Part shown: positions 2,592 through 62,103 of the stretch, in pieces | How positions within the stretch are numbered: the stretch's first letter is position 1 | Layout of the letters: the number at the start of each line of letters is the position of its first letter | DNA from: Malacoraja senta | Lineage: Eukaryota | DNA: 64,000 bases | Assembly: GCA_038087875.1 (NCBI GenBank) | Contig: CM075990.1 | Location: 5,458,001 to 5,522,000 of the forward strand | Reading direction: 5' to 3' | Notes under the pieces: generated by a model | Seen by the model: the letters and a program-made list of their open reading frames with translations, nothing else | Told to the model about the DNA's origin: nothing | Databases searched by the model: none | Position numbers and translations under genes: made by a program

Positions 2592-2806
2592 TAGGAACGA
2601 ACTGCAGATGCTGGTTTTAACTGAAGATAGACACAAAAGGCTGGAGTAACTCAGCGGGTCAGACAGCATCTCTGGAGAAAAGGAATAGGTGACGTTTCGG
2701 GTCGAGACTCTTCTTTAGTCTGAAGAAGGGTCTCGACCCGAAACGTTACCTATTCCTTTTCTTCAGAGATGCTGTCTGATGTGCTGAGTTACTCCAGCCT
2801 TTTGTT
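2592..2806. mobile_element. Inverted (fold-back) Penelope pLTR insertion
   Basis: Minus-then-plus pLTR halves; 15-bp TSD AATCCTAATATTGTG at 2577 and 2807. Confidence 0.85.
2720..2747 (+). ncRNA. Minimal type-I hammerhead ribozyme core (Penelope pLTR)
   Basis: CUGAAGA-A-GGGU(CUCG)ACCC-GAAA-CGUU. Stem I is weak. Confidence 0.55.
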
Positions 2807-3099
2807 AATCCTAATATTGTGGTTAATTTGATTGAGATATCAAAAAATTATGAAGGGTGGTGACAATAATTGAAAGAATAAGATGAGTTTCCATAAATCT
2901 AAGGGCTTAAGATGGGACAACAAAGTTTAAACATTACAAATTTGGAACGCAAAGCAATGAAAAAAAAATGACAGAGACTTACAAGGCTAGAGGGTTCATT
3001 GACAATGTTAGTGGTGGAGACCATGGTTAAGATGGTAATCATTTTATGAACCACTAAGGTCACCATATGGACAAAGAGAGGATGGACACATTTTCTCTT

Positions 3100-3630
3100 G
3101 TTTGTTCACCTGCTGTCACATTGGGAAGAACAAACAAGATGGTCGCCCCATTACAGGAAGGATGTGGAAGTTTTGGAAGGGGTGAAGAGGAGGAGGGTGA
3201 AGAGCAGAAATATGCCTGGATTAGAGGATATTAACTGCAGGGTCAGGTTGGATAGACATTGGAGGTCGAGAGAAGACCAGATAGAGGTATATATAATTAT
3301 AAGAGACGTGGATAGGCTAGACAGTCAGAACATTGTTCCCAGGAACAAAACATCAAATACTGGAATGCATAGCCTTAAAGCGTGAGGGGCGGTTTAAAAG
3401 AGATGTGTAGGAAGTTTTTTGCACAGAACGTACAGTAGTGGGTACCTGGGGTGGTGGTGGAGGCAGATATGATAATGGCATTTTTAGAGGCTCTTGGATA
3501 GGTATGTGGATATGCAGGATCTGGAGGGATATGGATTATGTGCAGGTAGATAAGAGTTAGTCTTGGCATCATGTTCGGCCTGGACATTGTGGGCCGAAGG
3601 GCTTATTTCTGTGCTGTCCTGTTCTATATG
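3100..3630 (+). mobile_element. CR1/HER1 LINE 3' fragment, degraded
   Basis: WSPHYRKDV..LE peptide and GGGCCGAAGGGC tail. Confidence 0.8.
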
Positions 3631-5034
3631 TTAACTATTTATATTTTCTGTATACAAGTAATCGATTTAACCTATGCGTAAAGATCCCTCCGATTGTCCT
3701 GTGGTAATCAATATCCGAGGAGCGAAGGGCCTGACCATTCTGTGCAAGGAATCAGATAGAACATTCGAGGGCCATGTCCCATGCATGAATAGTTTCATAG
3801 GTATTTGAAGGACGAGGGAATATTAGAACCAACTAGCAGGACACCCACTTGGAATTATTTTCTGCTGCTTATGTGGAAGGTAACCCCGGCATAAATTGTT
3901 TAAGATGACTGGCCTGTTTCTGCAGTGTCATTTTTATGTAATTCCATGCCACCAACATTAGTTAACTGAAGAAATTCTGTCAGATCATTTAGTATCAAAA
4001 TTAGAATGACAGGTTAACAATTTCACCACATTAGAATAGTCATTGTCTTGAGTACAATATGGAAAACATATTTTCTTGAGAACAGCTCCTTCTTGCTGCT
4101 ATCAAAATTCTGAATGGTCCTGTCATGAGCTAGGGTGTAGCCCAGATCTTCCAACCCTACCTTGTTGAGCACCTTGCACTTTTAAAAAAAAATTCTGCAC
4201 TTTTTAACTGTATTGCTCTAACACCACAACACTATATTCTGCAATCAGGCCTTTATCTCTTTACACTACCCATTGTACTTTTTTGTATGGCTTGATTGTG
4301 CTCATACATTGTATAATTTGACTGCATAGCATGCAAACAACTTTTTTCACTGTATCTTGATACACGTGACAATAATAAATCTACACCAATTACAGAAACT
4401 GTGAACTCTTTGTAAATCAAATTGAAGCCTCAAGACATTTTGATAAATCTCCTTTTCGGCGCCTGCATGGTTTCTTTCAGCATTCCAAGCTGCTTAAAAA
4501 AGTGGCACTGTGTACTTACATATGATTATTTGTTAGTTTGTTGTGATAGTACATATATTTATGCCTTATAGTCATGGGGTACTAGAGAATAAGAGGAGTC
4601 CCAGTCATTGTAAGGCAAAGGTCCTCGACTACCAAAGCAATTGTGTGTTCACGAGACAATGCTGGGAGTACAGCAGAGGGGAGGGGTGAGTGAGTAAAAA
4701 AGTGTGGTGCAATGTTAGTGTTTTCACTTCACAACTTCAGAGACCCTAGTTTAATCCTGACCTTAGGGGTTGTCTGTTGATCTTGCTGGCCTTCCACCCT
4801 GCACTGGACCACTTGGACAACAGACACATGGCTGGCAGGCTGTTGTTCATCTGCATGATGCATGACGTTAATGCTATCATCCCTTCCATACTCATCATAA
4901 ACCCCAGAGAACTAGCTCCCTATGCAACTGGGTCCTCAAATTCCTCGTCTTTCCTCATTTTGCAGACTTTAATCAGTGCCATTGTGGGCAGGACATGTAG
5001 CAGCCTGAAGTCCCACAACACTATGTTCAGGAAA

Positions 5035-5420
5035 TAGACAATAGACAATAGACAATAGGTGCAGGAATAGGCCATTTGGCCCTTCGAGCCAGCACCGCCA
5101 TTCAATGTGATCATGGCTGATCATCCCCAATCAGTACCCTGTTCCTGCCTTCTCCCCATATCCCCTGACTCCGCTATTTTTAAGAGCCCTATCTAGCTCT
5201 CACTTGAAAGCATCCAGAGAACCAGCCTCCACCGCCCTCTGAGGCAGAGAATTCCACAGACTCACCACTCTCTGTGAGAAAAAGTGTTTCCTCATCTCCG
5301 TTCTAAATGGCTTACTCCTTATTCTTAAACTGTGGCCCCTGGTTCTGGACCCCCCAACATCGGGAACATGTTTCCTGCTTCTAGTGTGTCCAAGCCCTTA
5401 ACAATCTTATATGTTTCAAC
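5035..5420 (-). mobile_element. CR1/HER1 LINE 3' fragment
   Basis: Near-identical to 62908-63290; (TATTGTC)n tail. Confidence 0.9.
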
Positions 5421-5939
5421 AGCTACTTTCCTATAATTATCAGGTCCTTGGACTGACATGGACAACCCAAATCCTACCTTGGCAATGGAACACCATGGAC
5501 CATCCCTTGCACCACAATGGACCTGTTTTCCAATTATGTAATTTTTGCACCAATTCTTGTTTTGCAGTCTCTTTCCGCTCATTCTTGTCTTGCAGAATGA
5601 ATGTGCAATTCATACCTAATTTATATTTTAGTCTGCTGTCTGAGTCTATGTGTGTGTGATGCTGTTGCAAGCAAGGTTTCCATTATACCTGTACCTCACG
5701 GTACATGCACATATGATAATGAACTCCACTTGACTCTGGTGCGGATTGGACCAGATTGTTAGAATACACCGATTTAAACACAATAAAGACAAGACAATGG
5801 TTGGCAATTACCAAGTAGTGGTCTAACTATAACAGTCCTCATTCTCGCGATATCTTGGACTCATGATTCCTATCCACCTATCCTTGTCTCACCCTTATCT
5901 CCCAATCCCAAAGCAATAAAACAATTAACATTCTACACA

Positions 5940-6575
5940 AAGGCCTGCTGGATCTCCCAGTTACTAACCATTCTAACTCCTCTTCCCATTCCCACTATCA
6001 GTCTGAAGAAGGGTCTCAACCCAAAACGTCACCCATTCCTTCTCTCCAGAGATGCTGCCTGTCCCGTTGAGTCACTCCAGCTTTTTGTGTCTACCCACAC
6101 TGACCTTTCTGTCCTGGGCCTCCTCCATTGCCAGAGTGAGGTCAGATGCCAACTGGAGGAACAACACCTCATATTCTGCTTAGGGAGTTTATAAACTAAT
6201 GGTATGAACATTGAATTCTCCAATTTCAGGTAACAAACCCTCCCTTTTTTTTGCCCCTCTCTTCCCTGTACCCCACTTTTCCCCTTCCCCATTCCCCCAA
6301 CCTTTCCACCTATATTCCTTCCTATTTTCACCTTTGGCCTTTGTCCAGCCATCTACCTATCAAGAACCCTTTACCTCTATCCATCTACCACTTGCCAGGC
6401 TTTGTCCTGCCCCCACCTCTCTTATAGCTTTCTCCCCCACCCCCATCACAATCAGTCTGAAGAAGAGTCCTGACTTGAAGCATCACCTATCTATATTCTC
6501 CAGGCATGTTGCCTGACCCACTGAGTTACTCCAGCATATTGTGTCTTTTTTGTTCACCAGCTTCTGCAGTTCCCA
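5940..6575 (+). mobile_element. Penelope-like 3' fragment with a nested pLTR insertion (~5996-6094)
   Basis: Same GIY-YIG C-terminal and pLTR sequence as 59795-60630. Confidence 0.8.
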
Positions 6576-6577
6576 TA

Positions 6578-7397
6578 TACATAGATAGATACATAGAAAA
6601 TAGGTGCAGGAGTAGGCCATTCGGCCCTTCGAGCCTGCACCGCCATTCAATATGATCATGGCTGATCATCCAACTCAGTATCCCGTACCGGCCTTCTCTC
6701 CATACCCCCTGATCCCCTTAGCCACAAGGGCCACATCTAACTCCCTCTTAAATATAGCCAATGAACTGGCCTCAACTACCCTCTGTGGCAGAGAGTTCCA
6801 GAGATTCACCACTCTCTGTGTGAAAAAGTTTTTCCTCATCTCGGTCTTAAAGGATTTCCCCCTTATCCTTAAGCTGTGACCCCTTGTCCTGGACTTCCCC
6901 AACATCGGGAACAATCTTCCTGCATCTAGCCTGTCCAACCCCATAAGAATTTTGTACTTTTCTATAAGATCCCCTCTCAATCTCCTAAATTCTAGCGAGT
7001 ATAAGCCAAGTCTATCCAGTCTTTCTTCATATGAAAGTCCTGACATCCCAGGAATCAGTCTGGTGAACCTTCTCTGCACTCCCTCTATGGCTATAATGTC
7101 CTTCCTCAGATTTGGAGACCAAAACTGTATGCAATACTCCAGGTGTGGTCTCACCAAGACCCTGTACAACTGCAGTAGAACCTCCCTGCTCCTATACTCA
7201 AATCCTCTTGCTATGAAGGCCAACATACCATTCGCTTTCTTCACTGCCTGCTGCACCTGCAGGCCTACTTTCAATGACTGGTGTACCATGACACCCAGGT
7301 CTCGCTGCATCTCCCCATTTCCTAATCGGCCACCATTTAGATAATAGTCTGCCTTCCCGTTCTTGCCACCAAAGTGGATAACCTCACATTTATCTAC
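6578..7397 (-). mobile_element. CR1-clade (HER1-like) LINE 3' fragment with open RT C-terminus
   Basis: ORF 6675-7310 contains RDLGV, LVRPHLEYC.QFWSP, RRLRGDLIE, FFTQRVVNLWNSLP; 3' UTR GGCTCGAAGGGCCGAATGGCCTACTCCTG and microsatellite tail. Confidence 0.95.
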
Positions 7398-7805
7398 GGA
7401 TTATACCTAACACCAACGTGGAACGTCCAGCCCAAGGGCACACTCTGTTTACATCCAGCCCAAGGGCACACTCTGTTTGCTCTTATATCTCATCAAATGA
7501 GTCCTGCTTTTTTTCTAATCAAGTCAAGTCAAGTTTATTCGTCACATACACATACGAGATGTGCAGTGAAATGAAAAGTGGCAATGCTCGCGGATTGTGC
7601 AAAAAAAACAAACAAACAACGAAACAAACGAATGGAACAGAATCACATATTCTTTTACATATTAAATATTGTGGGCGGAAGGAAAAAGGGGGAAATATAC
7701 CCCAGCAATTAAAAAAAACCCAGTAGAATGGTACAGTAAAGTTAGTCCCTGGTGAGATAGGAGTTTACAGTCCTAATGGCCTCTGGGAAGAAACTCCTTC
7801 TCAAT

Positions 7806-8070
7806 AGAGTTTAGTTTAGAGATACAGCACAGAAACAGGCCCTTTGGCCAACCGAATCCACGCCAACTAGCGAACCCCATACACACTAGGGACAATTTGC
7901 AACCTTCAAACCTGCACATCTTTGGAATGTGGGAGGAAACCGGACCAGGGCAAACCTATGTGGTCACGGGGAGAAGGTACAAACTCTGTACAGACAGCAC
8001 CCATAGTCAGGATCGAACCCAGGTTTCTGGCGCTGTAAGGCAGCAACTCTACTGCTGTGCCACCATGCCG
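7806..8070 (-). mobile_element. tRNA-derived V-SINE (HE1-like)
   Basis: A/B-box-like head (GGTGGCACAGCAGTAGAG...GGTTCGATCC), V-domain and HER1-derived tail. Confidence 0.85.
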
Positions 8071-8130
8071 TGCCTAGAGAAACTAAAGATTATGGAAGAC
8101 CAGGGCAGTCCAAATCTAGTGGACACTCTA

Positions 8131-8498
8131 TAGCTTACAGCTCAGTGGTATGAATATTGATTTCTCTCACTTCAGGTAGCCCCGGCATTCTCTCTCTCTC
8201 TATCCCTCCCCCACCCAAGTCGCACTAGCTTCTAGTTTTCACCCTACAAACAGCTAACAATGGTCTGTTTCCATTATCATCATCACTTTTTTGTATATCT
8301 TTTATTCATTGCTCTTTACCTCTCCACATCATCGTCTATATCTCTCATTTCCCTTACTCCGAACCAGTCTGAAGAAGGGTCTAGACCCAAAATGTCACCC
8401 ATTCCTTCGCTCCAAAGATGCTGCCTGTCCCGCTGAGTTACTCCAGCTTTTTGTGTAAATCTTTGGTTTAAACCAGCATCTGCAGTTCCATCCTACAC
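8131..8498 (+). mobile_element. Penelope-like pLTR fragment
   Basis: Matches 60308-60630. Confidence 0.75.
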
Positions 8499-9219
8499 CG
8501 ATAGCTCTCGTTGTTTGGCCTTTGTCAGGTTGTCTGTGAGGTGCTGAAGTAGATGCACTCTGATGTTGGAAGTGTTCTACTCATGGTAGAGCACTGGTGA
8601 TGGAGATCGATGGGTGACGAATGTGTACGAAAATATTCTGGACTGTTTGAAAGTGTACTGGGTCATTTTTAGGTTGACAAGCTTCAAATAGTGAGGAGCC
8701 ATAGGGACCAGTCTGGGGGCCTTGACAAGATACAAACCATATTAATGCATTACATGAAGCACCTAGTTTCTAGTACCCAAATTTGCTTGCAATGCAAAGG
8801 CTGGTGTGAAGAGAAACCAAGTTGTGAAGAGACTGCAAATGGACTGCAAAGGGAATATAAAGAGCTTACAGAAGCGCGCTAACAGTTATCAGATGGAGTG
8901 CAATGTGAAGAAATGCAAGGTTTGTCAGTTTGATATGAAGAAAAGAAAAGTAGAATATTTAAATGGAGAAAAGGCAGAATGCTGCTGTACGGAGGAACTG
9001 TGGTACCTTTGCCTGTGGAATAGGGCAAAGTAATGCGCAAGTACAGTGAATAATTGAGAAGATTCGTGGCATATTGTTTTATTGTAAAGGGGAGAGAGAA
9101 TAAGAGAAATGTTGCTTGGGGTTGGTGCACAGAGCAGACCAGAGTAAAAGGTAGAAGGACCTCATTACTTCCCAATCTAATCATTCACCAAGCAACCTCT
9201 GCCCCATCTGTGGCAAGTT

Positions 9220-9508
9220 TAACAATAAGGGGGAAGCCATTTAGAACTGAGATGAGGAAAAACATTTTCACCCAGAGAATTGTGAATTTGTGAAATTCAC
9301 TGCCTCAGAAGGCAGTGGAGGGCGATTCACTGGATGCATTCAAAAGAGAGTTAGATACAGCTCTTAGGACTAGCGGAATCAAGGGATATATGGGGAGAAG
9401 GCAGGAACGGGGTACTGATTGTGGATGATCAGCCATGATCACATTGAATGGCAGTGCTGGCTCGAAGGGCCGAATGGCCTACTGCACATATTGACTATGT
9501 TTCTATGT
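9220..9508 (+). mobile_element. CR1/HER1 LINE 3' fragment
   Basis: IRGKPFRTEMRKNIFTQRIVNL plus the shared 3' UTR. Confidence 0.88.
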
Positions 9509-9629
9509 AACATCTGTAATGCGGTTGGCCTCATCAATCAACTTAGAACCCACACAAGTGGAGTAGAATAAAGTTGCCCACAACCTTGAGATGTTGCCTA
9601 GCAAAGAGAGATAGCGATGTAAGATAAAA

Positions 9630-10060
9630 AGGAATAGGAGTAGAATTCATCCATTCGGCCCTTCTACGCATTCAATCATGGCTGATCTATCCCTCCCTCC
9701 TAACCCCATTCTCCTGCCTTCTCCCCATAACCTCTGACACCCATACTAATCAAGAATCTGTCAATCTCTGCCTTAAAAATATCCACTGACTTGGCCTCCA
9801 CAGCCTCCTGTGGCAATGAATTCTACAGATTCATCACCCTCTGACTAAATAAATGTCTCCTCATCTCCTTCCTAAAAGAATGTCCTTTAATTCTGAGGCT
9901 ATGACCTCTAGTCCCACACTCTCCCACTAGTGGAAACATCCTCTCCACCTCCACTCTATCTAAGCCTTTCACTATTCTGTATGTTTCAATGAGGTCCCCC
10001 CTCATTCTTCTAAACTCCAGCGAGTACAGGCCCAGTGTTGCCAAATGCTCATCGTAGGTT
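9630..10060 (-). mobile_element. CR1/HER1 LINE 3' fragment
   Basis: LGLYSLEFRRMRGDLIETY. Same subfamily at ~19345-19765 and ~49278-49685. Confidence 0.88.
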
Positions 10061-10177
10061 ATTGTAATGTATTACAATATATTGAATTGTGCTGGTTATT
10101 ACAGTGTATCAGTGCATTAAATATGCAGCCAAAGAAAAAATATTGGAGTATACTGATAGTGTTTGTGTACCAGTGTG

Positions 10178-10586
10178 TCATCATCATCAGCGGTTACTCG
10201 AAACGAGTATGACGGTCCTCTTTTGGGAGGACGCCTGTGCGTGACTTTGTTTAACATGTGGAGACTGGTGCACAGACAGCCACCACACGGTCCTTGACAG
10301 ATCTGGGTCAGGATCCAGTGGCATGGAGTCCAAGACGACCGGAGACCCTTTTCTGCTGCAGCCTTCATCCGCCTTCCCTGCCGTTGTGACGCTCCACTAA
10401 GGTCAGCCATCGTCCTCCGCCTGTTCCACCGTTGAGATCATGGTTGGTTTGCTCTTTGTCAGGGACCTCCCCCTCAGCCTTACCGTCACGGGTGGCCCTA
10501 CCAGGAGCATAGCTCCAGACGGCATCGCTCTCAGGATCTCAGGACCACACAAGCTTCTCCACCACGACAAGGTGACAATCCACGGA
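10178..10586 (-). mobile_element. Non-autonomous RTE-like retroposon with (GAT)n tail
   Basis: 5' end GATTGTCACCTTGTCGTGGTGG resembles RTE 5' UTRs; body shared with 55021-55375; flanking repeat TTGTGTAC at 10163 and 10587. Confidence 0.6.
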
Positions 10587-11314
10587 TTGTGTACTGCCAA
10601 TGAAAACATGAAAGCATACTGGTGGCGTTAAAGGATGGACTGGAGTGAAGAAATAAGGATCTGCAGATGCTGGTTTACAAAGGAAAAAACACAAGATGCT
10701 GGAGTAACTCAGTGAGTAAGGCAGCATCACTGGAGAATGTGGATAGGTGACATTTCTGGTCTGAAGAAAGATCACGGCCCGAAACATCACTTATCCATGT
10801 TTAGTAATGCTGCCTGACCCACCGAGTTACTCCAGCATTTTGTGTCAGTATTGGAGTGAACTTGTGGTGCAAATGACCTAGAGTTGAATCTGAGTAGCAA
10901 AGGCCACTTTCTTCAAACACTCCATGTGGTTTCCCTGAGGAGCATGAGTTGTACCGACACTAATGTGTACGTTGATACAATGCGGTGAAAAAAGCCCAAT
11001 GCCTCGCAGTTTGTGTGGAGTCTTTGCTCGATAATGTTGCTGACTATAACCACTGCTAATGTGAAACAGGTGGAGTTAGAGCCCCTGGCAAGTGAGAGGC
11101 ACTCTTCAAGTTATGATTTCGTTATTTATCATGAGCAACTCAAAACAGGCAGAGATGCTCGGTGGTGTGGAGCTTCATTGGACAATGATGTACCTAATGT
11201 ACTTGAAAAGCAAAAGCTGCAGACCCAATCTGAACTGCCTGTTCCTGGGACAGGAGCAGTACCTTTGAATTGAACTTTTTACATTTAATACATCTAATTG
11301 ATGATCTTTCAAGA

Positions 11315-11780
11315 AACTGCAGAGAGCTGTGGACGCAGCCCAGACCATCATGCAAACCAACCTTCCTTCCTTCCAATGACTCCAGCTACAACTCACGCTG
11401 CCTCGGCAAGGCCACCAGCATAATCAAGGACCAGTCTCACCCCAATCACTCCCTCTTCTTCCCTCTCCCATCAGGCAAGAGATACAGTAGTGTGAAAACA
11501 CATACCTCCAGATTCAGAGTCAGTTTCCTCCCAGCTGTTTTCAGGCAATTGAACCATCCTATCAACAATTAGAGAGCAGTCCTGAGCTACTATCTACCTT
11601 ATTGGGGACCCTCAGAGTATCTTTAATCTGGCTTTACAGGACTTTATCTTGCTTTAAACATTATTCCCTTTATCATGTATCTACACTATGGATAGCTCGA
11701 TTGTAATCATGTATAGCACGCAACAAAAAGCTTTTCACTGCACCTCGGTACATGTGACAATAAATTATACGAAACTAAAC
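11315..11780 (+). mobile_element. Rex-type LINE 3' end (second family)
   Basis: LQRAVDAAQTI...RCLGKATSIIKDQSHP.HSLFFPLPSGKRY. Related copies at ~40020-40470 (+) and ~58850-59098 (-). Confidence 0.75.
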
Positions 11781-51739: not shown

Positions 51740-51767
51740 AACGTTTCGGGCCGAAACCCTTCTTCAG
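51740..51767 (-). ncRNA. Minimal hammerhead ribozyme core
   Basis: Core identical to the 42687 copy. Confidence 0.55.
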
Positions 51768-52459
51768 ACTGATAGGGGGTGGGGAGAAGAAAGGAAAAAG
51801 GAAAAAGGCAGAGGAGGAGCCCGAGGCTGGGGGAGGGGAGGAGACAACCAGATGGCCAAGTTATATGGCCTTTTGCCATTCAAAATGATCGACATTCAAG
51901 CTCCTCTTTCCTTCCTGTTCCGCAGAGCCCCTTGCTTTTCTATAGACCAAAAAAAATCTTGGTCTTAAATATATTCAATACATCAGTCTCCATCCTCTCG
52001 TTTTTCGGGCATTCACAATCATCTGATATTCCAGTGTTTCTTGTGTTTCTTGTGTTTCAACCTGTGTGAATTTGAGCTCTTGACACTCCTCATCTCTTTA
52101 TTAAATGGGAGAAATTATGATCTCTATTCTGAATTTTCCAAACACACTCTCCGTTTCTACGTTGTCAGACGCTTTTATATTTCAATAAGATTATCTCTCG
52201 TTCTTTTCTCACTGAATCAAGATCCAACTTACTCAATCCTCCCTTTAAAATAACCCACTGCTGACCTTATTTGAACAATTATAATAATTTTTTTAAGCTT
52301 TTGGTGCTGCCGTTGACTTTATAGACGTTTATGAATTTTTGAGGGATAAATGTTTTTGTAAACCAGTGAGAAGCCATTTTTATCCTTTATTCATTTGATT
52401 AGATTTATAGAAATCCTGTTTTAAGCAAAAATTTAACCATAATGTACAAATCTACTTAC

Positions 52460-52608
52460 GCTTTTTCAAGTATTGCCATTTCTGAAGGTTGCAGTTCAAA
52501 CCCGTCTAGATTGAGTGCTCTTCTGAAGTTATTCTTCAGGATACGTCCACTGTTCAACTTGTCAAAGTCCTTCATATGATCACCAATCCTGACCCGGTTT
52601 CTGTACAC
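52460..52608 (-). CDS. EF-hand repeat protein exon (149 bp): VYRNRVRIGDHMKDFDKLNSGRILKNNFRRALNLDGFELQPSEMAILEK(A)
   Basis: ggctcag|GTG...GC|gtaagt, phase 0/2. DFDKLNSGRI EF-hand-like loop. Confidence 0.88.
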
Positions 52609-52669
52609 CTGAGCCAACACAAAGTAACTGAGGAACAGCTGACAACATGGCACATATTCAAAGCATCAT

Positions 52670-53135
52670 ATGGAGTGGATGTGGAGATGATGCTTCCAGT
52701 AGTGGGAGCATCAAGGGCCAGAGGGCACAGACACAGAATGAAAAGATGGACCTTTAGAATGGAGATGAGGAGGAATTTCTTTAGCCAGAGGGTGGTGAAT
52801 CTGTGGAATTCATCACCCCGGATGGCTGTGGAGACCAAGATATTTTTAAAGCTGAGATTTATAGGTTCTTGTTTAAGAAGGAACTGCAGATGCTGGAAAA
52901 TCGAAGGTAGACAAAAATGCTGGAGAAACTCAGTGGGTGAGGCAGCATCTATGCAGCGAAGGAAATAGGCAACGTTTCGGGCCCAGACCCTTATAGGTTC
53001 TTGATTAGTGAGGGTGTTGAAGGTTACGGAGAGGAGAATAGAGTTGAGAGTGAAAAATAGATTAGCCATGATCGAATGACGGAGCAGACTCGATGGGCTG
53101 AATGATTACAGGAATTCTGTTGCTATGTCTTATGG
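52670..53135 (+). mobile_element. CR1/HER1 LINE fragment with a nested pLTR (52872-52990)
   Basis: EMRRNFFSQRVVNLWNS; insert flanked by TSD TTATAGGTTCTTG at 52859 and 52991. Confidence 0.85.
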
Positions 53136-54542
53136 ACTTGCCCAACCCCAATCAATCCTTATTCTCCCTGCTCCCATCCAGCAGAAGGTACAGAAGCTTG
53201 AAAGTGCACATCACCAGATTCAAGACAGCTTATCTCCCTCCTTTATCAGGCTTCCGAATGGTCCTTCCATAAGCTAGGGTAATTGTTCGATTCACTTCTA
53301 CCCCAGTGAGTACTTGAGTTAGAACTTAGTGTATCCACTACGTATGTACGGTCTATCAGATCTGTATGGATAGCATGCAAAACAAAGCTTTGCCAGCAAC
53401 CAGCGATCACCCCTTACACTCTCCTATACACTAGGGACAATTTACAATTTTTACTGAAGCCAAATGACCTACAAACCTGTATGTCTTTGGAGTGTTGGAG
53501 GAAACCGGAGCACTGAGAGAGAGCCCACGCGGTCACAAGGAGAACACACAAACTCCATACAGTCAGCACCCGTAGTCAGGATCGAACCTGGATATCTGGA
53601 GCTGTAAGGCAGCAACTCTAACACTGCCCCACCATGCTTCCCCTGGATGGAGGATAGCAGACTTCCCTCTTTAATGTCTGTCAATGAACAAGCTTTCACA
53701 ACAACTGTCACCGTTATGGTCATTATTTCTGATAAATAATTTTTTTTTTTCCAAGCTCGATATATTTATTTTCTTATTTGGCATCTAACTTGCCAGACAG
53801 ACATGATGGGATTTGAAGTCGTAATTGCAGATCCTTGGGGGAGTAATGAACGTGTATTATACAAGGTGTAATAGTGCAGCGTTGCTCTGCTATCATGCCC
53901 CATAGAATGGAGAGGGTTACAGAGAGAGCAGGATTTAAAACAGCTGTTGAAATCGAGTTGTTGCAAATCCATAAGCAAATGTTAGAGATCCGACCGCCGG
54001 CCCGCGGCCTACAACATCTTTAAGCCACGGTCTGTGGTGCTTCTAACCGCGGCACGGCGAGGACTTAGATCTTCGACCGCCGGCCTGCGGCCTACACCAT
54101 CTTGAAGCCACGGTCTCCGGTAGGGAAGCACCGATTCGGGCCTTACCTTGCCTGCACATCTGGCCACCCGCAGCGGCAACTGCAGCGGTTTATGGTCCCG
54201 AAAATGGAGGAGGACTGACTGAACTTTGTGCCTTCCACCACAGTGATGAATGTTTGTGTTCAATTTTTGTGTGTATTGTGTGTTTTATTCTTATTGTACC
54301 GCTGCTGGCAAGTTCATTTCACTGCACTTTTGTGTATGTGACGAATAAATCTGACTATTAACTATTGACTAGTGAACGGATCCAGGAACCACGGATGAAG
54401 GGGATTTGATCCAAGTTAGAATACAGAATACTGAAGATTCAGATTTATGTTGGGTAACAGTGGATTGATGTGATATTGGAAATGGGATGAATGGGATGAA
54501 TGGGACCAGTACATTACAATAAATTGTGCACATTATGTTTAC

Positions 54543-54651
54543 CTTGGTTTTAATCTTTTCTAAGATGCAGTTAATGTCATTCGAGGCCCCCAGTTCATGG
54601 ATTCCCTTAAAATCGTTCAGCTGCTGAATCTCATCCATCAGTTTGTCATAC
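54543..54651 (-). CDS. EF-hand repeat protein exon (109 bp): (M)YDKLMDEIQQLNDFKGIHELGASNDINCILEKIKTK
   Basis: cttacag|G...AAG|gtaaac, phase 2/0. In frame with both neighbouring exons. Confidence 0.85.
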
Positions 54652-54955
54652 CTGTAAGATTGATAAAAGAGTATCAACATTTTTTTTTTTTAAACAACGA
54701 GCTTCTGATGTCCCACAGCCTGATAATTAAACTAACCAGATCCAGGGTACAGCCATTTTTGTCCTAGATCCATCTCAGCTCAGTTCAGGGTCAATCTCAG
54801 TACCCCCAGTGCCCGGTCCTAAGGCCTCTGGTTTCCCCAAGGAGAGAAGGGTTGAAAAATAATGAGGTAGAGAAAAGTGGAAGAAGAGGAGTTGAGGCCA
54901 GCATAGATCAACTACAATCGTATTAAATGGTGGGACTTGAAGAGCATGCTCCTAT

Positions 54956-55383
54956 TTCTTCTTAGGCCCCCCTCGGTCATGGCTGACCATGGGTGTCTCC
55001 AGGGTGTTATTCCCTATATGGAGGACGCCTGTGCGTGACTTTGTTTAACGTGGGGAGACTGGTGCACAGACAGCCACCCCACTGTCCTTGACATATCTGG
55101 GTCAGGTTCCAGTGGCATGGAGTCCAAGACGACCGGAGACCCTTTTCTGCTGCAGCCTTCATCCTCCTTCCCAGCTGTTGTGAAGCTCCACAAGGGTCAG
55201 CCATCATCCTCCGCCTGTTCCACAGTTGAAGTCTTGGTTGGATTGCTCTTTGTCAGAGACCTCCCCCTCGACCTTACCACCATGGGTGGCCCTACCGGGA
55301 GCATAGCTCCAGACGGCATCGCTCTCAGGATCTCAGGTCCACACAAGCGTCTCCACCACGACAAGGTGACAATCCGCAGGGAA
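54956..55383 (-). mobile_element. Non-autonomous RTE-like retroposon with (AAG)n tail
   Basis: Same ~350-bp body as 10227-10581; flanked by a TGCTCCTAT repeat. Confidence 0.6.
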
Positions 55384-56382
55384 GCCTGCTCCTATGTTCT
55401 TGTATTTTTTTATGTTCTTGTGAAATCATTATGTCCAGGATCCAACCCTTGACAACCCAGAGGCCATCTCATCAAACCTCAGTGTCAAACTCCCAAATGC
55501 CCAAAGTCCAACTCTCCAAAGTACATTGTGCTGTGGCTCAGAATCCAACTCACAATGTCCTAGTTTCCTAATCTGCATGTCGAAGAACCAAAGATACCAA
55601 TGTCCAACACCTAATCTACCATGGTCCAGACTGCAAGGTGCTATAACCAATCCCAAGTGCAAATGGACCAACATACAACCAGCAATGTCATGGCACTATT
55701 CTGTAGGTTTGTGAAGACATGAGTAATTGCGATCCATTGCGGGATAGAATATGGGCCACGGGGTTTTGTATGAGCTGAAGTTTACTGTGGGTGGAGGATG
55801 GGAAGACAGCCAGAGTAATGGATTAATCTGTGATCTTTAACTGATCGTTCAGTCATCTTTCCCTCAAGAGTTACCATGCGTGGGACTTGTGGGAGACCTC
55901 TCTCCTGGTACTCTTAACCACTGTAGAACATTTGACATGGTCAACCAGCACATCGTCATCCATCATCATTCTTTTGATGAAGTCCATATATTGGGCCCTT
56001 TACCCATTCACCTGTGGCCAGAATATCTCCAGGGTTAGCTTCTTCTTCTATTTTTCACTGATATCTCTCAATGATATTGGCCTTGGCATCTCTATGATAA
56101 TAGGGATGCAGTCGGCCTGGGCTCTATTGCACATCACTAACTTGTGCAAGGAGGTAAAGGAGGATAAGATTTCCCTACTGGCTGGTAACCTTTCAAAATC
56201 CACCATCAAGACTGAAATATTGGCAAAGCCCATTTGCCAGAGAATTGCTGAATCTGTGATAATGTAATATACTCACTTCAGGGTTTGGAGGAGGCAAGGT
56301 GGGGGCAGGGAATGAAGTCAAGCCTCTTCTTCTGATCTCTCGGCAAAGCCTGTATCATCCAGTAATGAACATCCATACTCAC

Positions 56383-56556
56383 ATCTCTTCAGGCTTCGGC
56401 TGGGGATCTACTTGGTCCAGGAATCTGACATAGTTGACGCCCAGTTCATCTGAGAACACTTTCTCCAGCAAATCCACCTCGTTCTCTGTCACTTCTATAT
56501 TCAGCAGAGCAAGAGATCGATGAAACTGAGACCGAGACAAGTGGCCTTTGTTTTCC
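56383..56556 (-). CDS. EF-hand repeat protein exon (174 bp): (K)ENKGHLSRSQFHRSLALLNIEVTENEVDLLEKVFSDELGVNYVRFLDQVDPQPKPEE(M)
   Basis: atctag|G...AT|gtgagt, phase 2/2. Completes the DFDK-ENKGHL loop and the VNY..F second hand. Not listed in the ORF track. Confidence 0.88.
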
Positions 56557-56831
56557 CTAGATATATGACAGCAACAACATTAGGAACATGGATGCCACAG
56601 TGGACTATTTATCTCCTAAACTCTGTTCTACCATTCATTAACGTCCATGTCACTTGCCATGGTTCTCTGAATATAAAGAACAAACATAGAGAGTTGTGTA
56701 GGAAGGAACTGCAGATGCTGGTTTAAACTGGATAGGCACAAAAAGCGGGAGTAACTCAGTGGGACAGGCAGCATCTCAGGAGAGGAATGGGTGATGTTTT
56801 GGGTTGAGACCCTTCTTCAGACTGGTTAGGG

Positions 56832-57059
56832 CAAGGGTTCCCAACCTGGGGTAAATTTACCCCCTGGGGGTAAATTTTGCCTACCCAGGGGATAAATTTG
56901 TTGATTCAGGATTTGTACATATTTTTTCTCATTGACTAACTGTGTTTGCTTCTGGTACACCAGTTCATCATTAGTTGTTCATCAATAAGTGAAATAACAT
57001 TGTTATGTGGTATTAAAGTTGCCAGGGGTGAACGGGACGAAAATGGTTGGGAACCCCTG
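56832..57059. mobile_element. hAT (Charlie-like) MITE
   Basis: TIR CAAGGGTTCCCAACC / GGTTGGGAACCCCTG; 8-bp TSD GGTTAGGG at 56824 and 57060. Confidence 0.88.
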
Positions 57060-57239
57060 GGTTAGGGATAAGGGAAACGAGAGATATAGACGATGATGTG
57101 GAGAGATAAGGAACAATGAATAAAGGAACGATGATAAAGGAAACAGGCCATTGTCAGCTGTTTGTAGGGTAGCTAGTGCGACTTGGGTGGGGGAGGGGTA
57201 GAGAGAGAGGGAATGCCGGGGCTACCTGAAGTGAGAGAA

Positions 57240-57975
57240 ATGAATGAATGAATGAATGAATAAGTTTATTGGCCAAGTATTCACATACAAAGAATTTGCC
57301 TTGGTGCTCCGCCCGCAAGTGACAACATGACATACAGTGACAGTTAGGAATGACACATAAAACATTAAACATTAATAATAAAACATTATTGATTAAACAT
57401 TTCTAAAAATGCCAGAGCAAAAGGAGGCTACAGATTTTTGGTTATTGAGTAGAGCTATTACTCGTGGAAAAAAAGCTGTTTTTATGTCTGGCTGTGGCAG
57501 TTTTGACAGTCCGGAGTCGCCCTCCAGAGGGAAGTGATTCAAAGAGTTTGTGGCCAGGGTGAGGGGGGGTCAGAGATGATCTTACCTGCTCGCTTCCTGG
57601 CCCTTGCAGTGTACAGTTCGTCAATGGAAGGAAGGTTGCAGCCAATAACCCTCTCAGCTGATCGGACGATTCGCTGCAGCCTCTGGATGTCGTGCTTCGT
57701 GGCTGAGCCAAACCAGACCATGATGGGGAAGTTGAGGACAGACTCTACGATGGCCGTGTAGAATTGGACCAACATTGCCTGTGGCGGATTGTGCTTCCTC
57801 AGCTGCCGCAGGAAGTACATCCTCTGTTGTGCCTTTTTGACTGTGGAGTCGATGGTAGCCCCCCATTTAAGGTCCTTGGAGATGATGGTTCCCAGAAACT
57901 TAAAAGACCCCACAGATATGACTGTATCTGTTGATGGTGAGTGGGGTGAGTGGAGGGGGAGCTCTCCTAATGTCT
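57240..57975 (-). mobile_element. Rex1/Babar-type LINE 3' fragment
   Basis: ORF 57539-57913 FKFLGTIISKDLKW...KKAQQRMYFLRQLRK; (ATTC)n tail. Confidence 0.88.
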
Positions 57976-58249
57976 AAAGTCTGACAATATTCATACCACT
58001 GGGCTGTAAGCTGCCCAAGCGAAATATGAGATGCTGTTCCTCCAATTTGCATTTAGCCTCACTCTGACAATGGAGGAGACCTAGGACAGAAAGGTCTGTG
58101 TAGGAATGGGAAGGAGAATTAAAGTGTCCAGCTGTTTAGTGGTTAGTTAGAGTGTTTGTATGCAGTTTTGGTTGCTATACCATAGAGAGAATGTGATTGA
58201 CCTGGAAGCAGTGCAAAGTAGATTCACCAGGATATTGCCTGGGGGGGAG

Positions 58250-58850
58250 TTGGGGGAAACTTTTTCTAATCTTTTACCTCGACGGAGATGCGATTGTTTT
58301 CTGTATCGTATCTCCGTCCGCACTGCGGCCTAACATCGAGGAGTTGGCGGCCTTTGCTGGAGATCGACCGGGAGCTCCATCGTGGAGGCCTGCGGGACTT
58401 ACCATCACGGAGTTCACGATCCCTGTCGGGGATCGACTTTGGGGCTCCAACCGTGGGTGCCGACGGACTTTAACATCGCGGAGCCCGTGGTCTCTGGTTA
58501 GAGACCGACATCGGAGACTCCAAACCGCAGGAGTTTCGACCGCCCCAACGCGAGAGTTTCGACCGCCCCGACGTGGGAGTTTCGATCGCCACGATGTGGG
58601 GGCTTCGATCCCCCTGACTGCGGATGGTTCGACTGCCCCAACCGCGGGAGAATAAAGATGAAGGAGATTGGACTTTATTGCCCTCCATCACAGTGAGGAA
58701 TGTGGGGAATCCACTGTGGTGGATGTTTATGTAACTTTTATGTAGTTGTGTGTCTTGTTGCTTTTTTTTTAGTATGCCTGTATAGTAATTTGAATTTCAC
58801 TGTACCTTAATTGGTACATGTGACAATAAGCTGACCTTGAAACCTTGAAA
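58250..58850 (+). repeat. Unclassified interspersed repeat with TTCGACCGCCCC subrepeats and a LINE-like tail
   Basis: Shares the GCC(T/C)TCCATCACAGTGA...TGTGGTGGATG block with ~32880-33250 (-) and partly with ~53990-54365 (+). Confidence 0.55.
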
Positions 58851-59098
58851 TCATTCCTGAATCTGGAGTTGTGCGTTTTCACACTTCTCTACCTTTTGCC
58901 TGATGGGAGAGGGGAGAAGAGGGAGTGACCAGGGTGCGACTCGTACTTGATTATGCTGCTGGCCTTGCCGAGGCAGCGTGAGGTATAAATGGAATCAATA
59001 GAAGGGAGGTTGATTTGTGTGATGGCATGGGCTGCGTCCACAATTCGCTGCAATTGCGTACGGTTCTGGATGGAGCTGTTTTCAAACCAAGCCGTGAT

Positions 59099-59380
59099 CA
59101 TCATCATCATCATATTCGTTGAAAACATCAACGGTCACAGTGCCTTACAATGCAATGTACGACAGTGATCGCAACTTCTACTGAAGTGTGGATGGCCGTT
59201 GACTCATCCGCCCTTTGACCAGTCTTGTTATTAGTCCTGCTGGGGGTCCACAGCCCCCTCCTCACCTGGCAAACCAGGTGGGGGAGATGGTTTAGTCACC
59301 GACTATCCAACCATGGAGCAGGTAGCACGGGATTACATGGTACCCGTGGTGGGGGGACTCCTCCCGACCTGAATCCTAGG
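59099..59380 (-). mobile_element. Short non-coding retroposon with (GAT)n tail, inserted in a Rex fragment
   Basis: TSD AGCCG(T/C)GAT at 59090 and 59381. Confidence 0.65.
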
Positions 59381-59510
59381 AGCCGCGATGCATCCTGATA
59401 AATCGCAGCAAACAGCCTGGCAAAACTCACTGGATGTTGTAATTATGGCCTTTTTGTTTAAAGATTACATACAATGTTTTACCATATAAAGAAACAAATA
59501 GCCAACGTAC

Positions 59511-59715
59511 TTGTCAAAATCATTGAATACGGGGTGTGTTATGAGACACCTGTGGCTGATTCGCTCTTTCAGACGACACATCAAAGATTCGAACTGAGTT
59601 CTCTCTGGAGCATTTAAGATGTCTGCATCCACTGTGCCAACTTTGGGCAGCAGGTAAGTCTCTAATGGTGGAACCTTTACAGTGGGTGACTTCTCCAATT
59701 CAGGGATGGTGAACA
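59511..59715 (-). CDS. EF-hand repeat protein exon (205 bp): (V)FTIPELEKSPTVKVPPLETYLLPKVG...RLKERISHRCLITHPVFNDFD(K)
   Basis: ctttccag|TG...AA|gtacgt, phase 1/2. Confidence 0.88.
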
Positions 59716-59794
59716 CTGGAAAGAGAATTGGCACAAATTAAATAGTGCAAAGAGATAGAAGTAATGTCCATCCATCGCATATAACACAAAATCC

Positions 59795-60630
59795 TCCCAA
59801 ATGTTTGATGCCTACAACGGAGTCCCAACACTAGTCACATCTTCCCATCTCCACCCCTTTCCGCCTTCCGCAGAGACCGTTCCCTCCACCACTCCCTGGT
59901 TAACTCATCACCTTCCCACCCAAACCACCCTCTCCCCAGGTACCTTCCCCTGCAACTGCAGAAGATTCAACACCTGTCGCTATACCTCCTCTCTCAACTC
60001 TGTCCAGGGACCCTGACAGTCCTTTCAGGTTAGGCAGAGGTTCACTTGCACCTCCTCCAACCTCATCTAACGTATCCGTTGTTCAAGGTGTGGACTCTTA
60101 TACATCAGCGAGACCAAACGTAGACTGGGCGATCGTTTCGCTGAACACCTCCGCTTAGTCCGCCTGAACCTACCTGATCTCCCGGTTGCTAAACACATTA
60201 ATTCTCCTTCCCATTCCCACACAGATCTTTCTGTCCTAGGTCTCCTCCAATGTCAGAGTGCGGCTAAACGCAAATTGGAGGAACAGCATTTCATATTTCG
60301 CTTGGGCAGCTTACAGCCCAGGGATATGAATATTGATTTCTCTAACTTCAAGTAACCCTGGTATTCCCTCTCTCTCTATTCCTCCCCCACCCAAGTCACA
60401 CCAGGTTCCCATTTTTACCCAACAAACAGCTAACAATGGCCTCTTTCGTTTATCATCGTAACTTTTTTGCATATATTGCATTCATTGTTCTTCATCTCTC
60501 TACATCATCGTCTATATCTCTCGTTTCCCTTATCCCAAACTAGTCTGAAGAAGGGTCTCGACCCGAAATGTCACCCATTCCTTCTCTCCAGAGATGATGC
60601 CTGTCCCACTGAGTTACTCCAACCTTTTGT
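59795..60630 (+). mobile_element. Penelope-like element 3' fragment (GIY-YIG + pLTR with hammerhead-like core)
   Basis: FPCNCRRFNTC...FTCTSSNLI*RIRCSRCGLLYISETKRRLGDRFAEHL...KLEEQHFIFRLGSLQP.DMNIDFSNFK*, then CTGAAGAAGGGTCTCGACCCGAAA at 60545. Confidence 0.9.
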
Positions 60631-60801
60631 GTTAGTCTGGATTATAAGTCAGGTAAACACAGTCTAGGATTCAAAAGCGCAACAGCATAAAATGGCAAAT
60701 CAATAGAGTTACATGGAGAAAGTCAATAGCTTTTAAAGACATTTTCTGTTGCTCCTTCTATCTCTGTCCCCAAATTATGGTTCATGTAAAAGGTTTAGTA
60801 C

Positions 60802-61000
60802 CTGAGTCAATGTCTTTGGTGAAATTAGTCCATATAATATGGCCAGGTTTAAAGGGATCTTCATAACAATTCGCCAGAGCACTGAATTGAGCATCATTTA
60901 GTTCTGGGTCAAATCCTATCATACCAAGAACCCTCCTAAAGACTGATGCAGGGATTCTTCCACTGCGCAAAGGGTCAAAGTCCTCAATGAAGTCAACAGT
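60802..61000 (-). CDS. EF-hand repeat protein exon (199 bp): TVDFIEDFDPLRSGRIPASVFRRVLGMIGF...PGHIIWTNFTKDIDS
   Basis: ccctttcag|ACT...TCAG|gtacta, phase 0/1. DFDPLRSGRI loop. Confidence 0.9.
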
Positions 61001-61441
61001 CTGAAAGGGAAAACAGTTTAGTTAGACTCACTGACTATAGTCCTGTCTTTAGCTCAATCTGGGTGCAGATACCAGCTGGGATCTGCCTGTGGCATCGTTC
61101 TTCAGCAGCCATATTATATGAATCAGAGACTGGATGAGGATTCACAAGTTCACAAGTTATAGGGGTAGAATTAGGCCATTCGGCCCATGGAGTCTACTCC
61201 ACCATTCAGGATGATTCCTGGGAGCAGCTTCTAACGCTGACAGCTTGGGTACCAGAGACCTTGTGGATGGGTTGGGGCAGGGGTGTCCTTTCGCAACATC
61301 GCCTCCCATCTCCCACACCAGTTGGCTACATGTAGCACAACCAGTCCCTGCTTAAGGCAGATGCCCAAAGGAAAGAAGGGAGAATTTGAACCAGAAATGA
61401 TGAAAGTAAACAAGGAGAGAAAGTGGAATCTGTGAACTCAC

Positions 61442-61623
61442 CCTGACTCTGTTGACCAAAATATGGTGGCGGAGTCGGGCCATCAACTCGCCCACATCCA
61501 GCTCACCGCTCTCTATCTTTTTCTCTTGTTTAAAGCCGACTTCTTGTTCCTCAGGCGAAATCTCAATTGGTTTAATTGCTGGTAATTCGGCCTCGAAGGA
61601 ATCCACTCTGAAACCTGTAAAAT
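61442..61623 (-). CDS. EF-hand repeat protein exon (182 bp, or 173 bp with the alternative acceptor at 61614): FTGFRVDSFEAELPAIKP...DVGELMARLRHHILVNRVR
   Basis: caatcag|AT (or ttttacag|GT)...AGG|gtgagt, phase 1/0. I found no further upstream exon inside the window. Confidence 0.82.
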
Positions 61624-61750
61624 CTGATTGAGAGACACACAAGGTGAACTGTTTTGCCAAATGCTTCCCATCCTCGACACTTCGTGCAGCGACAGCAACT
61701 GGTCTGAGTCAGCGTGTTATTTTACCTGTCAACATTAGAAGATATTACTG

Positions 61751-61882
61751 GGGTGGGAGATTGCAACCTTCACGTGGTCCGCCCTGTTTCGACGAATGCA
61801 ATCAACCTGGCGTGCACAATCAAATAAGATCAAATAGAACAAGTTGTCCTACAACTTTAGGCTGTGCACGCCATACGCAAGA
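61751..61882 (+). mobile_element. 132-bp retroposon ending CCATACGCAAGAAG
   Basis: 14-bp TSD AGAAGATATTACTG at 61737 and 61883. Confidence 0.75.
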
Positions 61883-62103
61883 AGAAGATATTACTGACTC
61901 CTGCATGCCGCTGAACTGGGTAACTGAAAATAGACACAAAAAGCTGGAGTAACTCAGCAGGTCAGACAGCATCTCTGGAGAAAAGGAATAGGTGGAGCTT
62001 CAGGTTGAGACCATCTTCAGACTGAGAGTCAGGGGAGAGGGAAAGGAGAGATATAGACGGTGATATAGAACTGAAAATTCTGTTTTCACTTTGAGGCAAC
62101 TTA

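What the first reader, a model, noticed from the sequence alone, without database searches (positions are those of the whole stretch)
2720..62025. About 20 hammerhead-ribozyme-like cores in Penelope pLTRs within 64 kb
Seen: motif CUGAAGA-A-[GGGU NNNN RCCC]-GAAA-CGU(C/U), intact at 2720+, 25861+, 42687-, 46569+, 51740- and decayed at about 1246-, 6003, 6457, 8369, 10761, 20461-, 21486, 26488, 27981-, 28013, 37585, 38663, 38890, 56795-, 60545, 62010-. Stem II is kept while the loop varies (CUCG, CGCG, UUCG with a U-G pair). Known: CUGANGA/GAAA/NUH is the hammerhead core; Penelope-like elements carry minimal type-I hammerheads with a palindromic stem III (here ACGU) proposed to act as dimers; an extra nucleotide after A9 is tolerated. 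Caveat seen: stem I is only about 2 bp in these copies, so they may be inactive, use another fold, or work in trans. Copies lie in sense orientation in introns of both genes (2720+ in TMEM150-like; 51740- in the EF-hand gene).
Basis: partly seen in the sequence, partly recalled or inferred. Interest (0 to 1): 0.7.

Follow-up and report, generated by a model that had tools for sequence, protein, structure and literature searches.

The report
Penelope retroelement stubs carrying hammerhead motifs
The window holds 36 pieces of a short ribozyme-like motif from the tail ends of a Penelope-like jumping gene in a skate-type genome, a known arrangement; the copies are likely inert, and the one odd feature is that many start exactly at the motif's front edge.

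Summary
Real. All 21 listed sites exist (20 matches at <=3 mismatches, 0.03 expected); a profile finds 36 arms at 29 loci. They are 3' ends of a Penelope-like element (PLE), probably Neptune-type: RT/GIY-YIG remnants lie upstream at 59764-60352 and 25146-26126, with 9-15 bp target-site duplications and an optional ~40-nt tail. The motif fits the published minimal PLE hammerhead (PMC4209133); Rfam finds none. Only 5 of 21 cores checked are complete, helix I is 2 bp and is not predicted to form, copies decay like their flanks, and sense orientation is not enriched (8 of 13). Likely the RNA's 5' end, untested. The scan reported such fold-back copies on another genome (e1-7788964).

The parts
59764..60355 (+). 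3' part of a PLE reading frame (RT-EN linker, GIY-YIG endonuclease, stop), broken
60356..60541 (+). Pyrimidine-rich spacer between ORF end and hammerhead (3' UTR; donor-like start, YAG end); differs in length and sequence between subfamilies
60542..60634 (+). Hammerhead module without tail (core 60545-60572, C15.2 mutated); reference for the read lay
25147..26615 (+). Old 1.47-kb PLE 3' end (RT thumb, CX4CX2C linker, EN, UTR, decayed core at 26488); 15-bp TSD 25132-25146 / 26617-26631
25860..25988 (+). Short tailed copy inserted in that EN region; core complete, helix I absent; TSD starting 25850 / 25988
1145..1514 (-). PLE 3' end: EN C-terminus, UTR, complete hammerhead motif (core 1272-1245), tail; antisense in TMEM150A-like intron
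2589..2806 (.). Head-to-head hairpin copy (cores 2718- and 2720+), 15-bp TSD 2577-2591 / 2807-2821, tail on the minus arm only
5996..6092 (+). Short copy (core 6003) nested in the EN region of an older PLE end (about 5950-6580, core 6457)
8132..8498 (+). PLE 3' end: ORF end, UTR, decayed core 8369, tail
10653..10851 (.). Hairpin copy, junction at a GTC microhomology, 9-bp TSD
13301..13458 (.). Hairpin copy, 11-bp TSD
16450..16535 (-). Copy starting at the cleavage triplet with a 7-nt fold-back arm
20380..20474 (-). Old short copy, core 20472, no TSD found
21482..21578 (+). Short copy, core 21486, 11-14 bp TSD
27873..28106 (.). Hairpin copy (cores 28007- and 28013+), 13-bp TSD
31837..31891 (-). 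Fragment downstream of the core
32117..32218 (+). Tailed copy starting 1-2 nt before the cleavage site
34953..35155 (.). Old hairpin copy, no clear TSD
37479..37677 (+). PLE 3' end from the ORF end, core damaged (37581), 12-bp TSD
38557..38757 (.). Hairpin copy (core 38663+), same GTC junction as 10653-10851, 13-bp TSD
38887..39019 (+). Short tailed copy, core 38890, 13-bp TSD
41768..41927 (.). Hairpin copy with internal deletions, 13-bp TSD
42622..42717 (-). Short young copy, complete motif (core 42714-42687), TSD about 13-16 bp
44962..45040 (-). Old fragment starting in GAAA
46566..46697 (+). Short young tailed copy, complete motif (core 46569-46596), 13-15 bp TSD
49173..49226 (+). Old fragment downstream of the core
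51677..51857 (-). Young copy with part of the UTR, complete motif (core 51767-51740), 12-bp TSD; sense in EF-hand intron
52871..52992 (-). Tailed copy cut inside the core (keeps GAAA-CGUU), TSD about 13 bp; sense in EF-hand intron
56696..58135 (-). PLE 3' end (EN C-terminus to tail, core 56820) split by two later insertions
61930..62069 (-). Copy with about 49 nt of UTR, core 62020 with a 1-nt deletion, 10-bp TSD
309..23566 (+). Host gene, TMEM150A-like (five exon matches; the exon for residues 62-85 and the first exon were not located)
48275..61624 (-). Host gene, 924-aa multi-EF-hand protein (residues 434-924 matched except 774-840; gene continues beyond the window)

Best explanation
These are 5'-truncated tail-end copies of a Penelope-like retrotransposon, each carrying the parent's minimal hammerhead motif, likely inserted by target-primed reverse transcription and likely inert now. 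Shown: PLE coding remnants directly upstream of the motif at the longer copies; target-site duplications of 9-15 bp; two alternative 3' ends about 40 nt apart; a sharp 5' edge at (C)AGT|CUGAAGA; seven head-to-head pairs inserted as single units. Inferred from work on the anole PLE (PMC11167929): the endonuclease nicks both target strands and the RT starts at either of two internal sites (before or after the tail); one primed end gives a single stub, two primed ends or a fold-back give a hairpin with the tail on one arm. Inferred here: the RT runs off the template at the AGU just before the core because that is likely the RNA's 5' end (initiator-like YCA(+1)GTCT kept in all subfamilies; about 0.4 among causes of the edge; a 3' splice site about 0.25, a fold-back or stall at the TCAG-T-CTGA mini-palindrome or bound protein about 0.25, other 0.1). 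In the parent the motif would cleave after GUC/GUU only as a dimer through ACGU and probably with help from the element's protein; not tested.
For: EN piece 60089-60352 matches skate and ray PLE proteins at 64-75%, whose sequences show the RT C-half, CX4CX2C linker and GIY-YIG (Pfam GIY-YIG E 0.0002-0.008, below the curated cut-off); tblastn places them upstream of the cores at 59764-60352, 25146-26126, 1513-1358, 6093-6230, 58135-57986. TSDs: 6 of 7 hairpins and 5 of 8 short single copies (21486, 25861, 38890, 42714, 46569 plus 52998 = 6 of 8; none clear for 6003, 20472). Tail on exactly one arm in 7 of 7 hairpins. 13 of 22 arms that reach the core end within -4..0 of C3; 0.3-1.0 expected (offsets read by hand). 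In contigs of 4 public runs from 3 organisms the commonest loose ends lie before 60542-60545 with unrelated letters (agreement 0.31-0.40; X1 1600/734/528/431, X4 2234/1045/734/661), depth steps up at the motif, and a strand-switch joint 60542/60576 stands in 3 of 4 runs. Copies decay at similar rates in core (7/232) and downstream (69/1291), p=0.19; no sense bias. Same architecture in print: inverted 5'-truncated pLTR, palindrome at the junction, TSD, one-sided tail (PMC3846280; PMC8557442); solitary and opposite-strand min-HHRs (PMC4209133).
Against: No full-length element or 5' pLTR is in the window, so the parent's layout and transcription start are not seen. Loose ends at 60542 are inflated by subfamilies with a different UTR and by a private mismatch at 60541. 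An untemplated G, expected from copying a cap, is not seen at the 3 window junctions where it could be read (38890, 42714, 25861), although a G stands at two tandem joints in contigs (60579->60542 in X1, 60594->60543 in X20). Helix I probability is about 0 in 5 of 5 complete copies and stem II competes with other folds in 4 of 5, so even the parent's activity is uncertain. Rfam hammerhead models do not score it. Covariation is not above shuffles.
Confidence: 0.85

Rival explanations
1. The 5' edge marks a 3' splice site: the pyrimidine-rich spacer is an intron from the ORF end to YAG|UCUGAAGA, as in Drosophila virilis Penelope, and splicing or its protein footprint sets where copying stops.
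For: Donor-like CAG|GTAG, CAG|GTAAC or CAA|GTAAC at the ORF end in 6 of 7 long copies examined, 75-88% pyrimidines before the AG in the 6 uninterrupted ones, spacer 87-227 nt. In D. virilis the intron ends at helix I (PMC4209133; intron 416-491, PMC2377424).
Against: No spliced copy among 29 loci; no 60351->60544 joint in the 15 of 690 joint rows shown; the letters before 60544 are unrelated between contigs (agreement 0.32-0.38), so no constant exon precedes the core; donors match the consensus poorly at +4..+6.
Confidence: 0.25
2. The short copies are a self-propagating non-autonomous family (SINE-like or hairpin 'master' elements) mobilised in trans by the PLE protein, rather than one-off products of full-length RNA.
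For: Fixed ends; 42714-, 46569+ and 51767- are 97-99% alike; identical GTC junction in two hairpins; rare head-to-tail module joints in contigs.
Against: Hairpins and short copies occur in at least three sequence subfamilies and carry the diagnostic letters of long copies; the two identical junctions are in different subfamilies; six different junctions among seven hairpins; 51767- extends into the UTR.
Confidence: 0.15
3. Hammerhead cleavage itself makes the template ends: copies are made from the 3' cleavage product.
For: 16524- and 32112+ start 1-2 nt before the cleavage site and the fold-back arm at 16524 begins exactly at it; a hairpin joint lies 3 nt past it in contigs.
Against: The main edge is about 30 nt upstream of the site (13 arms versus 2); the site is not among the top six loose-end places in any of 4 runs; in the anole PLE uncleaved RNA is the main substrate and no RNA-seq reads begin at the site (PMC11167929).
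Confidence: 0.08
4. Some copies act as host intronic ribozymes that cut pre-mRNA.
For: 51767- is complete and sense; 52998-, about 1.2 kb away on the same strand, keeps GAAA-CGUU and could serve as its dimer partner.
Against: No sense bias, neutral-looking decay, 2-bp helix I not predicted to form, 2720+ buried in a duplex; published min-HHRs cleave poorly even as dimers (PMC4209133).
Confidence: 0.05

Closest known systems
[quoted passage not shown]
   Same: CUGANGA plus one extra nucleotide, G10.1-C11.1, GAAA, palindromic CG at 15.2-16.2, NUH, short helix I; mostly solitary, some in pairs on opposite strands; CUGAAGAA cores and 2-bp helices I are in Fig. S3.
   Different: No cartilaginous fish in the Fig. 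S3 alignment or Table S1 as read; helix I here is G-C plus U-A or U-G rather than CC/GG; local density is 5 complete motifs in 64 kb, whereas that paper called 4,000-9,000 per genome remarkable.
EN+ PLE insertions with inverted 5'-truncated pLTR, junction palindrome, TSD and one-sided tail (PMC3846280, PMC8557442)
   Same: Head-to-head arms, TSD around the whole unit, 30-40 bp tail on one arm, nesting in older copies.
   Different: Here the whole insertion is often only the two arms (160-235 bp) and 14 of 14 hairpin arms end inside the 40-nt hammerhead; the passages read do not tie the junction to the ribozyme.
Anolis Poseidon element PAc (PMC11167929)
   Same: Two RT start sites framing the tail; both target strands primed; hammerhead upstream of the RT start region.
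   Different: Poseidon clade, with the ORF start inside the hammerhead; ours has a CX4CX2C linker (Neptune/Nematis type) and no conserved ORF start was identified in the module; no biochemistry here.
Drosophila virilis Penelope (PMC2377424, PMC4209133)
   Same: 2-bp helix I; YAG a few nucleotides before the core.
   Different: There the YAG is a proven intron end and the start site is 46 nt upstream of the intron; here neither is shown.
Non-LTR retrozymes (10.64898/2026.07.22.740005)
   Same: Non-coding PLE-derived units with type-I hammerheads; reported in the one chondrichthyan sampled.
   Different: Defined as tandem arrays with two or more complete motifs; no tandem unit among the 29 loci here, only rare head-to-tail joints in public contigs.

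Membership tests
PLE minimal hammerhead (min-HHR) | Core CUGANGA / GAAA / NUH in type-I order around helix II | tested here: met
   11 exact matches, 0.04 expected
PLE minimal hammerhead (min-HHR) | Extra nucleotide between A9 and 10.1; G10.1-C11.1; palindromic 15.2-16.2 | tested here: met
   consensus features from PMC4209133
PLE minimal hammerhead (min-HHR) | Helix I present (2-6 bp in the published set) | tested here: inconclusive
   2 bp in the 5 complete copies, predicted probability about 0; pairs kept by wobble changes only
PLE minimal hammerhead (min-HHR) | Located in the terminal repeat downstream of a PLE RT-EN frame | tested here: met
PLE minimal hammerhead (min-HHR) | Self-cleavage as dimer or with protein | not testable with these tools
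   only assembled contigs were available, no raw RNA reads
Rfam hammerhead families | Score at or above the gathering threshold | tested here: not met
   0 matches in the window; no hammerhead family at E<=10 in 46400-46800, one copy tested
EN+ Penelope-like element | Single ORF with RT and C-terminal GIY-YIG | tested here: met
   broken 3' halves only; Pfam GIY-YIG below curated cut-off
EN+ Penelope-like element | 5' truncation, inverted 5' copy, optional 30-40 bp tail, TSD | tested here: met
EN+ Penelope-like element | Partial tandem forming a 5' pLTR before a full ORF | tested here: inconclusive
   no full-length copy in the window; no genome held
Neptune clade | CX2-5CxxC linker between RT and EN | tested here: met
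   CX4CX2C in the 25146-26126 copy and in P0002, P0003; one Cys lost in the 59764 copy; shared with Nematis
Neptune clade | RT phylogeny groups with Neptune references | not tested
   no named reference set was fetched
Non-LTR retrozyme | Tandem array with at least two complete hammerheads | tested here: not met
   0 of 29 loci; rare tandem joints elsewhere in these genomes

The most novel reading that the evidence does not exclude
In this lineage the hammerhead sits at the very start of the element's transcript (initiator three nucleotides before the core), so the roughly 95-135 nt module is a retrovirus-like R region: internal priming gives a strong-stop-like cDNA that integrates alone or, primed from both target nicks, as a hairpin. 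That would explain the 2-bp helix I, the fixed 5' edge and the head-to-head repeats of PLEs in one mechanism, and would make batoid genomes, with perhaps 10^5 or more such motifs, a natural record of PLE replication intermediates.
Probability: 0.3. Interest if true: 0.6.

Novelty: new member of a known kind. Interest (0 to 1): 0.3.

Why it matters
As ribozymes in PLE repeats, this is expected biology and probably harmless debris. The useful part is the geometry: PLE replication is still poorly understood, and a dense set of copies with fixed 5' ends, two 3' ends, TSDs and hairpin junctions lets one test whether copying stops at the transcript start, at a splice site or at a fold-back. The hairpin copies would also put 80-95 bp duplexes into host pre-mRNA (4 of 7 lie in the TMEM150A-like gene span or between the genes in either orientation), a possible source of RNA editing or small RNAs (inference, untested).

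Tried and rejected
Rfam at gathering threshold, whole window: 0 matches; at E<=10 on one complete copy: no hammerhead. Exact-pattern scans for further copies: 0 in viral contigs, prokaryote genomes and metagenomes, as expected for a vertebrate repeat. No whole genome is held, so genome-wide statistics rest on one lay of contigs. No RNA holder on record and no raw reads were listed; X18 and X20 are RNA only by guess, so they say nothing on expression, starts or cleavage; summed depth is not a copy number. RNAalifold on 24 arms kept 3 pairs of stem II and a 4-bp downstream stem, covariation term 0.04; named-structure counts did not beat shuffles. Unsupervised clustering did not recover the subfamilies; they were assigned by hand. 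Sense-orientation bias rejected. A splice joint was looked for and not seen in the rows shown; 675 rows were hidden, so this is open. The deep protein-representative search could not be run, so clade placement rests on the linker motif. Lunse et al. (PMC5785218) is not held; its title, seen in a reference list, says PLE variants cleave as dimers; I did not read it. Literature searches for a chondrichthyan report or for a link between junction and ribozyme showed none in the listings and passages read; Repbase and Dfam were not searched, and the bioRxiv supplements are closed. Look-ups of earlier findings by place and sequence were empty.

Full report
Observation. The motif is real and far beyond chance: 20 matches at up to 3 mismatches (shuffle mean 0.03) and 11 exact matches to a family-independent hammerhead pattern (0.04 expected). 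A profile built from 17 window copies finds 36 arms at 29 loci. Of 21 cores checked in detail, 5 have core, four-pair stem II, ACGU palindrome and a 2-bp helix I: 1272-, 2720+, 42714-, 46569+, 51767-. So 1272- was wrongly called decayed, and 25861+ lacks helix I. Rfam scores nothing in the window and no hammerhead on one complete copy at E<=10.

What carries it. At 59764-60634 the order is RT-EN linker, GIY-YIG endonuclease, stop, 190-nt pyrimidine-rich spacer, motif, tail. The EN piece matches 25 of 395 candidate proteins, best those of a skate and two rays (64-75%), which show the PLE RT C-half, a CX4CX2C linker and GIY-YIG (Pfam GIY-YIG below its cut-off). tblastn places them upstream of five cores. 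The linker fits Neptune or Nematis (PMC8557442, passages); Neptune and Poseidon are the vertebrate clades in 10.64898/2026.07.22.740005 (first part and passages), so Neptune is inferred; no tree was built. Host genes match skates at 91-100%.

Anatomy of the 29 loci. Nine extend at least 49 nt into the spacer or ORF; eight are single stubs starting at the motif; seven are head-to-head pairs; five start in or after GAAA. Two 3' ends recur, about +92 and +132 from C3, the PLE tail. Six of 7 hairpins and 6 of 8 stubs have 9-16 bp TSDs, and each hairpin has the tail on one arm only, so each pair entered in one event. Two stubs (6003, 25861) sit in the EN of older copies, about 25 nt apart in the element. 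The spacer differs between subfamilies while everything from CAGT onward is shared.

The fixed 5' edge. Thirteen of the 22 arms that reach the core end within -4..0 of C3, against 0.3 expected from the upstream truncation rate or 1.0 from the downstream rate (offsets read by hand, microhomology blurs them by 1-3 nt); 26 of 36 ends lie in the 40-nt motif. In assembled contigs of 4 of the 24 runs listed (three organisms), the commonest loose ends lie before 60542-60545 with unrelated letters, depth rises at the motif, a strand-switch joint 60542/60576 stands in 3 runs and a 38-nt head-to-tail repeat of the motif in all 4. Caveats: other subfamilies' spacers and a private mismatch at 60541 add to the 60542 count; only 15 of 690 joints and 24 of 3,618 loose-end rows were shown; summed depth is no copy number. 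The edge is about 30 nt upstream of the cleavage site, so cleavage does not explain it. YCAGTCT, kept in all subfamilies, reads as a Pol II initiator (consensus recalled, not from a call), as a 3' splice site, and as a mini-palindrome. For the splice reading: donor-like ends of the ORF and a pyrimidine tract and the D. virilis precedent (PMC4209133; PMC2377424, passages); against it, no spliced copy or joint seen. For the start-site reading: most informative junctions begin at the A, and a G stands at two tandem joints, but not at three readable window junctions. Several rows of Fig. S3 in PMC4209133 also show YCAGU or UUAGU shortly before the core, which fits either reading.

Is it an active ribozyme? 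Not shown. Among four hand-made subfamily majorities 0 of 11 core columns vary, H17 alternates C/U, two paired columns change U-A to U-G, one changes at a CpG, and 15 of 58 downstream columns vary (p=0.052, partly circular). That is what selection in the parent would give, but covariation does not beat shuffles. After insertion the core decays about as fast as the rest (7/232 versus 69/1291, p=0.19). Helix I is not predicted to form, stem II is outcompeted in 4 of 5 complete copies, the hammerhead-type dimer (-13 to -14 kcal/mol) is less stable than other duplexes (-17 to -25), and hairpin loci fold at -60 to -178 kcal/mol. Published min-HHRs show no monomer and low dimer activity (PMC4209133); the anole motif cleaves only with the element's protein and is dispensable for insertion in vitro (PMC11167929, parts 1-2 of 4). 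Eight of 13 single-arm intronic copies are sense (p=0.58), so neither use nor avoidance by the host shows.

Comparison. Min-HHRs in PLE repeats, scattered solitary motifs and opposite-strand pairs are described in PMC4209133 (parts 1-2 of 4 and supplement parts 1-2 of 3 read). Inverted pLTRs with junction palindromes, TSD and one-sided tail are in PMC3846280 (part 1, passages and Discussion) and PMC8557442. PMC6765202 was read as passages. The scan itself reported fold-back copies with this motif on another shark-type genome (e1-7788964); my reading was recorded before that look-up and is not strengthened by it. I found no paper, in searches, that reports the chondrichthyan motif or ties the truncation point to the ribozyme edge; Repbase and Dfam were not available.

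Verdict. A new member of a known kind: PLE tail-end debris with the expected minimal hammerhead, probably inert in the host. The sharp 5' edge is the part worth a genome-wide look. Interest 0.3; novel case 0.3 probability, 0.6 if true.

Noticed in passing
window 35790-36782 (-): Uninterrupted 330-aa Tc1-type transposase frame (Pfam HTH_Tnp_Tc3_2, HTH_SB, DDE_3); 35570-35784 matches 36974-37188 in inverted orientation at 98%, so a young Tc1/mariner element with long terminal repeats.
   Followed up: partly
window 25860-25988 and 5996-6092: Two young stubs inserted in the EN region of older PLE copies at nearly the same place, hinting at a preferred target in the element itself.
   Followed up: partly
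public contigs laid on window 60542-60631: Head-to-tail repeats of the motif (38-nt unit in 4 of 4 runs; whole tailed module in X18) would be natural cis dimers, retrozyme-like; none in the window.
   Followed up: no
window 52871-52992 (-) and 51677-51857 (-): Same-strand pair about 1.2 kb apart in the EF-hand gene; one has the full motif, the other keeps the substrate half.
   Followed up: no
window 46569, 42714-, 51767-: The youngest subfamily has GUUUCGG..CCGAAAC, an alternative pairing that hides GAAA in predicted folds.
   Followed up: partly
window 41167-41245, 63439-63542, 56830-56881: Other short inverted repeats unrelated to the PLE module, probably DNA-transposon derived.
   Followed up: no
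window 49989-50456 and 14721-15772: Long simple repeats (GAGCTG-type and CT/GA tracts) giving spurious open frames; LINE fragments at 6675-7400, 28545-29189, 57539-57973, 62998-63507.
   Followed up: no
window 48275-61624 (-): Uncharacterised 924-aa multi-EF-hand protein with relatives in sharks and rays and two unnamed distant hits at 37-41%.
   Followed up: no
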